A DNA stretch of 64,000 bases from Octopus vulgaris (Eukaryota), in assembly GCA_951406725.2 (NCBI GenBank), contig OX597819.1:132680001-132744000 (forward strand). The letters are read 5' to 3'. The notes under the pieces were generated by a model that saw only the letters and a list, made by a program, of their open reading frames with translations, searched no databases and was not told where the DNA came from. Positions 31,962 to 32,437 of the stretch are shown piece by piece; the stretch's first letter is position 1, and each line of letters starts with the position of its first letter. The position numbers were made by a program, and so were the translations under genes.

Positions 31962-32432
31962 AGAGCAGTTGTATACTGTCAACTTAATGTGACAGTCCCA
32001 TTCAGTTGACAGTATACAACTACTCTATCGTACCACCACTGCTTATATCTCTCTGAGATATTTAGAAATGTAATATTTCTATTTTTTGTGATCAGTGGAT
32101 TTATTTCACTGGAATTATTATATATGTTTACAAGGTCTACATAAGCATCTGCAGCTATCAAGCCATGCTAGTCCAGACTGATGACGAGCGAGACTCAGAA
32201 ACTAGTCTCTGGATACAGGCTTAGCTGGGTGGAGGTGCTTGTCTCCCCTTTGTAAACATAAGGACACAGGAAATGTGTCAAGGCCGACAGGAAGCATTGA
32301 TGCTTCCTAGGGCTAAATAGCGGTGGTCTGATTCCCTTCATGGGACTGTCACGTTAAATTGACAGTATACAACTGCTCATTCCTACCACCGCTGCTAATA
32401 TCTCTCTAAGATATTTAGAAATGTAATATTTC

Positions 32433-32437
<5 letters not shown>
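31962..32437 (+). mobile_element. Retrozyme-like 353-nt unit (family H4) with ~80-bp terminal direct repeat and inverted 5' segment
   Basis: TTGACAGTATACAACT at 32006 and 32359; 31962-32001 is the reverse complement of ~32340-32378; HHR TCCAGA-CTGATGA-C-GAG..CTC-A-GAAACTAGTC-TCTGGA at 32172-32213. Confidence 0.8.

What the first reader, a model, noticed from the sequence alone, without database searches (positions are those of the whole stretch)
31962..32437. 353-nt retrozyme-like unit: more than one monomer long, with inverted 5' cap and intact hammerhead core
Seen: an ~80-bp direct repeat 353 nt apart (32006 and 32359), a 40-bp inverted segment at the 5' end, no coding capacity, and a type I HHR (6-bp stem I UCCAGA/UCUGGA, CUGAUGA, GAAA-CUAG-UC). 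A second diverged copy at 24885-25175 keeps the fold with a different stem II loop (GAGC-AAUG-GCUC). Both have an unusual C and A flanking stem II. Established: metazoan non-LTR retrozymes are short HHR-containing repeats that yield circular RNAs. Inference: the terminal redundancy reflects reverse transcription of a circular or multimeric RNA by a Penelope RT.
Basis: partly seen in the sequence, partly recalled or inferred. Interest (0 to 1): 0.72.

Follow-up and report, generated by a model that had tools for sequence, protein, structure and literature searches.

The report
Penelope-carried retrozyme with its own parasite
This is one copy of a dispersed, non-coding 353-base repeat that carries a hammerhead-ribozyme motif and always ends at one of two fixed points, so it was likely pasted in by a Penelope-type jumping gene, as proposed for known animal 'retrozymes'; a second, protein-coding jumping element has repeatedly inserted just in front of its ribozyme motif.

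Summary
The element is a dispersed non-coding family (531 exact hammerhead-core matches, 0 control) with a 353-nt unit and arrays of up to about 4 units without an ORF. The anatomy needs re-reading. 5' ends vary, but 183 of 205 outer 3' ends fall at two sites 60 nt apart: the Penelope 'tail', i.e. two internal RT start sites. The 'inverted cap' is a separate 39-nt arm. Of 44 inverted insertions with both ends at a site, 43 pair one site-1 arm with one site-2 arm; 8-15-bp TSDs occur. cDNAs read through the predicted cut (54 of 61), so the template is a circle or an uncleaved multimer; this is undecided. The C and A are a C·A mismatch at pair 10.1-11.1. No coding Penelope element was fused to any of 154 loci, and no partner was identified. 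Verdict: a new member of the non-LTR retrozymes (non-autonomous Penelope-like elements); the scan noted a similar element on other DNA (e1-9869133). Most novel by-product: a 1.7-kb zinc-knuckle-ORF element has the retrozyme directly downstream at 21 of 30 loci, across diverged host subfamilies.

The parts
31963..32001 (-).
   Evidence: 37/39 to rc of 32340-32378; same arrangement in 43 inverted insertions
31983..32025 (+). 5'-truncated partial unit (unit 311-353); overlaps the inverted arm by 19 nt through a hairpin palindrome
32026..32378 (+). One full 353-nt non-coding unit, ending at fixed terminus S1 (...CAACTGCTC)
   Evidence: fold z = -6.8 for the same 353-nt unit taken in the frame 32086-32438
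32160..32222 (+). Type I hammerhead motif with extended stem I; C32185·A32197 at pair 10.1-11.1; palindromic 2-bp stem III; predicted cut after 32207
   Evidence: cleavage untested
32315..32396 (+). Predicted multiloop (closing stem, two hairpins, single-stranded AC-rich stretch holding S1); candidate RT-recognition structure
   Evidence: RNAalifold on 13 near and distant relatives: 13 pairs, 9 with a two-sided change
32379..32438 (+). 60-nt tail ending at fixed terminus S2 (...TTTCTATTTT)
   Evidence: 80 of 205 outer ends at unit +48..66
31908..31962 (.). (CA)n(TA)n(GA)n left flank; TSD not resolvable
32439..32494 (.). (TA)n right flank
24875..25167 (+). Second, diverged copy: single arm from unit 116 to S2, hammerhead core at 24912

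Best explanation
The element is a dispersed non-coding 353-nt repeat with a hammerhead motif and two fixed 3' ends, likely a non-autonomous Penelope-like element (animal non-LTR retrozyme) copied in trans by a Penelope RT/GIY-YIG protein. Shown: fixed termini S1 and S2 60 nt apart, variable 5' ends, ORF-free head-to-tail arrays, head-to-head inversions with one S1 and one S2 arm, 8-15-bp TSDs, AT/microsatellite-rich landing sites, and read-through of the predicted cut. Inferred: the protein binds the structured 3' region, cuts both strands of AT-rich DNA with a roughly 12-nt stagger, and each DNA end primes reverse transcription internally, one at S1 and one at S2. If both cDNAs are kept and joined 5' to 5', an inversion with a one-sided tail results (this window); if one is kept, a single truncated arm results. 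The template has no stop at the GUC site, so it is either a monomer cut by (probably dimer-dependent) hammerheads and ligated into a circle (about 50%, my preferred reading because it regenerates longer-than-unit copies) or an uncleaved read-through/multimeric transcript (about 40%).
For: 183 of 205 outer 3' ends lie in two windows covering 45 of 353 nt. Of 58 inverted insertions, 44 have both ends at a site: 43 S1+S2, 1 S2+S2, 0 S1+S1; 26 of 26 in the genome-order sample. Both arms copy the same stretch upstream of S1 in 29 of 37 two-arm cases and are more alike than copies from other loci (7.6% vs 11.7% divergence, 34 of 39). TSD >=8 nt in 17 of 43 S1+S2 inverted insertions vs 2 of 172 controls, and 12 of 82 single arms vs 9 of 328. 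Contigs join the L017 flanks without the element, with 7 letters fitting both sides. (TA)4/(TC)4 within 30 nt of 69 of 183 3' ends vs 146 of 2576 background positions. 13 of 109 arms exceed one unit; about 4 units in L303. 54 of the 61 arms that come within 6 nt of the predicted cut pass it by 15 nt or more; 6 end within 6 nt of it, 4.8 expected. Hammerhead helices: 85.6% of cells paired, 11 of 20 pairs with a two-sided change, 0/500 shuffles. Stem III stays palindromic when it changes (CUAG 82, CAUG 13 of 102). RT+GIY-YIG proteins are encoded in the genome. Two internal RT starts bounding the tail, and both-strand cleavage and extension, were shown in vitro for an anole PLE (PMC11167929).
Against: No autonomous partner was found: the unit profile did not hit the regions downstream of the PLE ORFs in 70 PLE loci; hits in 6 of them were separate old relatives nearby. 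5' ends pile up at unit 135-149 (14 of 50 at risk vs 4.5 expected, P 2.6e-4 uncorrected; 12 without the two joined to the ORF1-only element, P 2.4e-3), which suggests that some templates are linear and begin just ahead of the hammerhead. In the anole PLE, hammerhead cleavage was not needed for insertion (PMC11167929). Pair 10.1-11.1 is never G-C here (0 of 102). The window copy's own repeats are no more alike than random copies (52nd percentile). Within-locus similarity could also come from gene conversion. In one search the rows were selected by patterns that fix the core and two stem II pairs, and related rows inflate covariation.
Confidence: 0.8

Rival explanations
1. Same Penelope-type mobilisation, but the hammerhead is weak or idle and no circle exists: templates are linear transcripts that start near unit 135-149 or read through from multimeric loci.
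For: 5' pile-up just ahead of the core; non-canonical 10.1-11.1 pair; unprocessed RNA was the dominant substrate for the anole PLE (PMC11167929); 8 of 9 Xenopus retrozyme dimers did not cleave in vitro (10.64898/2026.07.22.740005).
Against: Hammerhead helices and the stem III palindrome are kept through compensatory changes across subfamilies. Linear copying alone shortens copies at each round, yet 2-4-unit copies with seamless 353-nt period occur at several loci, and no long array was seen among the 40 best-scored of 3711 candidates.
Confidence: 0.4
2. Copies are truncated pLTR ends of a long coding PLE.
For: PLE stubs show the same tail and inversion pattern (PMC8557442, PMC3846280); only 1.5-kb flanks and 18 PLE proteins of three families were tested.
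Against: Units join head to tail with no ORF between them (L017, L027, L303). 7 of 154 loci have PLE-protein hits nearby; in the 6 read out as DNA the coding stretch is interrupted by the element or separated from it by unrelated DNA, and in L047 the hit lies about 370 nt off.
Confidence: 0.05
3. A satellite or minisatellite amplified at DNA level by unequal crossing-over.
For: Short tandem arrays exist; this model is discussed for multimers in 10.64898/2026.07.22.740005.
Against: Dispersed copies with fixed 3' ends, 5' truncation, TSDs and an empty site.
Confidence: 0.03

Closest known systems
Animal non-LTR retrozymes (Cervera and de la Pena 2020, PMC7229834, passages and section 14 read; Li et al. 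2026, 10.64898/2026.07.22.740005, parts 1-3 of 5 read)
   Same: Non-coding unit in the 170-400-nt range (mussel 350-390), low GC, type I hammerhead with 6-bp helix I and 4-position helix II, short tandems and monomers, TSDs longer than 4 bp, PLEs in the same genome.
   Different: 10.1-11.1 is C·A, U·U, U·A or A·U rather than G-C; mostly sub-unit or 1.x-unit copies; the PLE tail and inversion signature, which the passages read do not describe for retrozymes, is measured here; RNA circle and cleavage not shown.
Endonuclease-positive Penelope-like element insertions (Craig et al. 2021, PMC8557442 and its preprint, passages; Arkhipova et al. 2013, PMC3846280, passages; Frangieh et al. 2024, PMC11167929, parts 1-2 of 4)
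   Same: Partial tandems, inverted 5'-truncated copy, tail on one end only, 8-10-bp TSDs, AT-rich or (TA)n targets, two internal RT starts downstream of the hammerhead, the first in an AC-rich loop.
   Different: No ORF; tail of 60 nt rather than 30-40; hammerhead of canonical size rather than minimal.
Non-autonomous Chlamys elements such as MRC1 (PMC8557442, passage)
   Same: Non-coding PLE derivatives forming pLTRs and head-to-tail copies.
   Different: Those share 3' sequence with an identified autonomous family; no partner was found here.
Natural hammerheads with a U10.1·U11.1 mismatch (Perreault et al. 2011, PMC3088659, passages)
   Same: Mismatch at the core-proximal pair of stem II; U·U occurs in 16 of 102 copies here.
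   Different: C·A dominates here (65 of 102); I found no paper on it (0 hits; narrow terms).

Membership tests
non-LTR retrozyme | Non-coding unit of about 170-400 nt, GC under 50% | tested here: met
   353 nt; longest frames 52/60 aa; sequence
non-LTR retrozyme | Type I hammerhead motif in the unit | tested here: met
   core pair 10.1-11.1 non-canonical; Rfam sub-threshold
non-LTR retrozyme | Tandem copies with at least two hammerheads | tested here: met
   L017, L027, L303 about 4 units; the window copy itself has one hammerhead
non-LTR retrozyme | TSDs longer than 4 bp | tested here: met
   8-15 nt in 17 of 43 inverted insertions vs 2 of 172 controls; absence of PBS/PPT not tested separately
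non-LTR retrozyme | Self-cleavage of the RNA | not testable with these tools
   needs in vitro transcription of monomer and dimer
non-LTR retrozyme | Abundant linear and circular monomer RNA | tested here: inconclusive
   only contigs of runs guessed to be RNA were available; genomic read-through of the cut fits circle or multimer
Penelope-like element, insertion signature | Fixed 3' ends with optional tail, 5' truncation, partial tandems | tested here: met
Penelope-like element, insertion signature | Inverted 5'-truncated copy with tail on one end only | tested here: met
   43 of 44
Penelope-like element, autonomous | ORF with RT and GIY-YIG endonuclease between pLTRs | tested here: not met
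   0 of 154 loci
Non-autonomous PLE derivative | Terminal sequence shared with an identified autonomous PLE | tested here: inconclusive
   not found in 70 PLE loci, three protein families recognised among them; other families not sampled

The most novel reading that the evidence does not exclude
A three-tier parasite system: a circular-RNA retrozyme with a C·A-variant, dimer-dependent hammerhead is copied by one Penelope complex that primes both broken DNA ends at two dedicated sites, and is itself the specific landing site of an ORF1-only (zinc-knuckle) retroelement that inserts 20-30 nt upstream of the ribozyme core in several diverged retrozyme subfamilies. The 353-nt unit would be a minimal natural substrate for testing how Penelope enzymes make tails, tandems and inversions.
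Probability: 0.4. Interest if true: 0.68.

Novelty: new member of a known kind. Interest (0 to 1): 0.45.

Why it matters
That animal retrozymes are moved by Penelope enzymes has rested on co-occurrence and pLTR similarity (PMC7229834; 10.64898/2026.07.22.740005). Here a purely non-coding retrozyme family carries the Penelope insertion signature in countable form, and the near-strict pairing of S1 with S2 in inversions ties the two in vitro RT start sites (PMC11167929) to the two target strands. It also names exact positions to test. The site-specific ORF1-only intruder would be a mobile element that targets a ribozyme retroelement. My two searches for this (listings only) showed no such report; Repbase and Dfam could not be searched.

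Tried and rejected
RNA evidence: no RNA holder listed (24 runs, none on record as RNA). Contigs of 7 runs guessed to be RNA were laid; they cover the unit and one spans the predicted cut, but contigs cannot show level, ends or circularity, so this is not used for or against expression. Rfam: whole-window hits were microsatellite artefacts. The repeat finder was swamped by microsatellites. Partner search: PF26215 (accession recalled) is not in the library; PF01541 and the window's GIY-YIG-like fragment gave PLE loci, none sharing the unit; a hammerhead family with canonical G10.1-C11.1 and the same stem III (6 of 20 hits) has no unit similarity and no PLE ORF nearby. Two protein searches returned nothing. 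I first read the SINE-like tails at some 5' junctions as template jumps; nested insertions with TSDs made independent insertion more likely. Alignment A1 held one wrong-strand row and was redone as A2. Of three RNAalifold runs on the 3' region, (two rows lacking the tail) gave other helices, (one mis-cut row) gave none, and (13 rows) gave the multiloop, so that structure depends on the alignment. The descriptor had a matching bug and was redone. Within- versus between-copy divergence cannot tell circle from multimer. Before counts, 23 of 177 loci were dropped as duplicates; 7 complex loci were left out of end counts; 14 of 58 inverted loci had an end outside both sites. Loci came from four differently biased searches; length statistics use only the genome-order sample (91 loci). 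Paper supplements were not read and may list related hammerheads or families.

Full report
Observation. The direct repeat has period 353 and is 80 nt at 73/80, or 103 nt at 89/103; 31963-32001 is the reverse complement of 32340-32378 at 37/39. A type I hammerhead descriptor finds the two named motifs in the window and none in 200 shuffles. Rfam gives only a sub-threshold match. The unit has no frame over 60 aa and folds far better than its shuffles (z -6.8). The genome is 2.8 Gb in 227 contigs; that it is an octopus is my inference, echoed by unchecked notes.

Family. The core pattern has 531 exact matches (control 0) and a 24-nt motif near the 3' end has 758 (control 0); the DNA search listed 3180 candidates, of which 40 were scored. 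I mapped 177 loci (154 after removing duplicates) onto the unit defined as window 32026-32378. Subfamilies range from about 94% to below 80% identity, and far older relatives occur.

Ends. Of 205 outer 3' ends, 103 lie at S1 (window 32378), 80 at S2 (about 32438) and 22 elsewhere; the two windows cover 45 of 353 nt. 5' ends are scattered. This is the Penelope tail, which Frangieh et al. (PMC11167929, parts 1-2 of 4 read) traced in vitro to two internal RT start sites downstream of the hammerhead, with both target strands cut and extended. S1 lies in a single-stranded AC-rich stretch of a predicted multiloop in which 9 of 13 pairs show a two-sided change; two other alignments did not recover this fold.

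Inversions. 58 of 154 loci are head-to-head inversions. Of the 44 with both ends at a site, 43 combine S1 and S2, one has S2 twice, none S1 twice; in the genome-order sample it is 26 of 26. A tail on one end only is known qualitatively for PLEs (PMC8557442, PMC3846280, passages). The window copy is such an insertion: a 39-nt S1 arm on the minus strand and a 456-nt S2 arm on the plus strand. Both arms usually copy the same stretch (29 of 37) and resemble each other more than other copies (34 of 39). TSDs of 8-15 nt are found in 17 of 43 such insertions (2 of 172 controls) and in 12 of 82 single arms (9 of 328 controls); 3' flanks are enriched for (TA)n/(TC)n, partly seeded by the element's own terminal CTC. 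Contigs bridge the empty site of L017 with 7 shared letters.

Not a coding element's stub. Units follow each other without an ORF for up to about 4 copies. 7 of 154 loci have PLE-protein hits within 1.5 kb, none fused 5' of the element. Open RT+GIY-YIG frames exist in the genome (781 aa; a 899-908-aa family had no Pfam hit), but the unit profile does not match the DNA downstream of their ORFs in 70 loci. The partner is unknown.

Template. The predicted cut lies 171 nt upstream of S1. Of 61 arms that come within 6 nt of it, 6 stop within 6 nt (4.8 expected) and 54 pass it by 15 nt or more; 13 of 109 arms exceed one unit. A cut linear monomer is therefore not the main template. A ligated circle, as shown for coral, mussel and axolotl retrozymes (PMC7229834, passages and section 14) and proposed for PLEs (PMC4209133, parts 1-2 of 4), fits; so does uncleaved RNA. 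Against a pure circle, 5' ends pile up at unit 135-149 (14 of 50 at risk, 4.5 expected). Earlier notes on shark PLE stubs read a similar pile-up as the RNA start; I confirmed the pile-up here, not its cause.

Ribozyme. In 102 parsed copies (the parse allowed one change per core box) the core is CUGAUGA in 91 and GAAA in 100. Stem III is CUAG in 82 and CAUG in 13, both keeping a palindrome, as expected for dimeric cleavage (PMC4209133). The flanking bases of stem II are C·A 65, U·U 16, U·A 14, A·U 4, other 3, so they are best read as pair 10.1-11.1 of a four-position helix, normally G-C. A natural U·U at this pair is reported (PMC3088659, passages); other hammerhead families in this genome show G·U and A·U there. 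On 34 copies, 11 of 20 pairs show a two-sided change, with the caveats of pattern-based selection and relatedness. The window copy has two minority loop changes and is probably decayed. Cleavage is untested.

By-product. In 8 of 154 loci another element's 3' end abuts unit 127-137 (161 in one). In L180 it is a nested 1.7-kb insert with a short duplication. Searching with its 3' 254 nt, 21 of the 30 fetched loci have the retrozyme directly downstream, just ahead of the hammerhead; 8 of those, plus L322, also show the upstream half within the fetched DNA. L323 is a 5'-truncated insert with a 15-nt duplication. Over 20 loci the inserts are 93% identical while their hosts average 81.5% (minimum 63%), uncorrelated, which points to repeated independent insertion. 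It encodes one ORF with a weak zinc-knuckle match (E 0.001, below the curated cut-off) and no RT was seen; calling it Tx1- or HeT-A-like rests on recall. Some loci are inverted composites (L313, L330), so PLE-type copying of the composite may also occur.

Verdict. A new member of the animal non-LTR retrozymes, working like a non-autonomous PLE (confidence 0.8); Li et al. (10.64898/2026.07.22.740005, parts 1-3 of 5 read) already argue that such elements derive from PLEs. Searches for an octopus retrozyme listed no description; Repbase and supplements were not seen. Interest 0.45: a known class, with unusually clean mechanistic statistics, a core-pair variant, and a site-specific intruder as the most novel lead.

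Noticed in passing
L180:4306-6003, L311-L340; also L035, L040, L055, L083, L088, L145, L149, L258: A 1.7-kb ORF1-only (zinc-knuckle) element, and related families with SINE-like 3' tails, insert at unit about 120-140 of the retrozyme; 21 of 30 loci have the retrozyme directly downstream, with 12-20-nt duplications where both junctions were read.
   Followed up: partly
window 31725-31905, 32496-32661, and 375-523 (opposite strand): The element sits between two copies of another repeat with a hammerhead-like motif on the minus strand (CUGUGGAA or CUGUAGAA, GAGC/GCUC stem, GAAACGUU) and an atypical core.
   Followed up: no
window 28817-30025: 3' end of a PLE of the 899-908-aa family: GIY-YIG-like frame, then a hammerhead with a long stem II near 29888; this family also shows two 3' termini, the outer ending in TTTCTATTT like S2 here.
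   Followed up: partly
window 30143-30546: Old relative of the retrozyme 3' region on the minus strand (profile hit 30429-30520; similar sequence at 30143-30230 seen by eye), next to a zinc-knuckle ORF fragment (30549-30989); a similar ORF fragment lies at 41354-41737.
   Followed up: no
window 19589 (+) and 22850 (-): Minimal PLE-type hammerhead motifs with an extra base after A9.
   Followed up: no
L252, L256, L257, L259, L260, L262: Separate short repeat family with a canonical G10.1-C11.1 hammerhead and the same ACUAGU stem III; no PLE ORF nearby.
   Followed up: partly
L272-L300 (many): Old hammerhead family with G·U at 10.1-11.1 and a GUC/GAC stem II; the pattern has 254 matches genome-wide, control 0.
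   Followed up: no
S1 ends, e.g. L010, L076, L079, L086: (TC)n tracts start at the element's terminal CTC and run into (TA)n, suggesting microsatellite birth at insertion ends.
   Followed up: no
L081: The 5' junction carries an inverted copy of the 3' flank instead of a direct TSD.
   Followed up: no
G000: Many GIY-YIG hits sit in 781-aa open frames with identical scores, suggesting a young Penelope-like family.
   Followed up: partly
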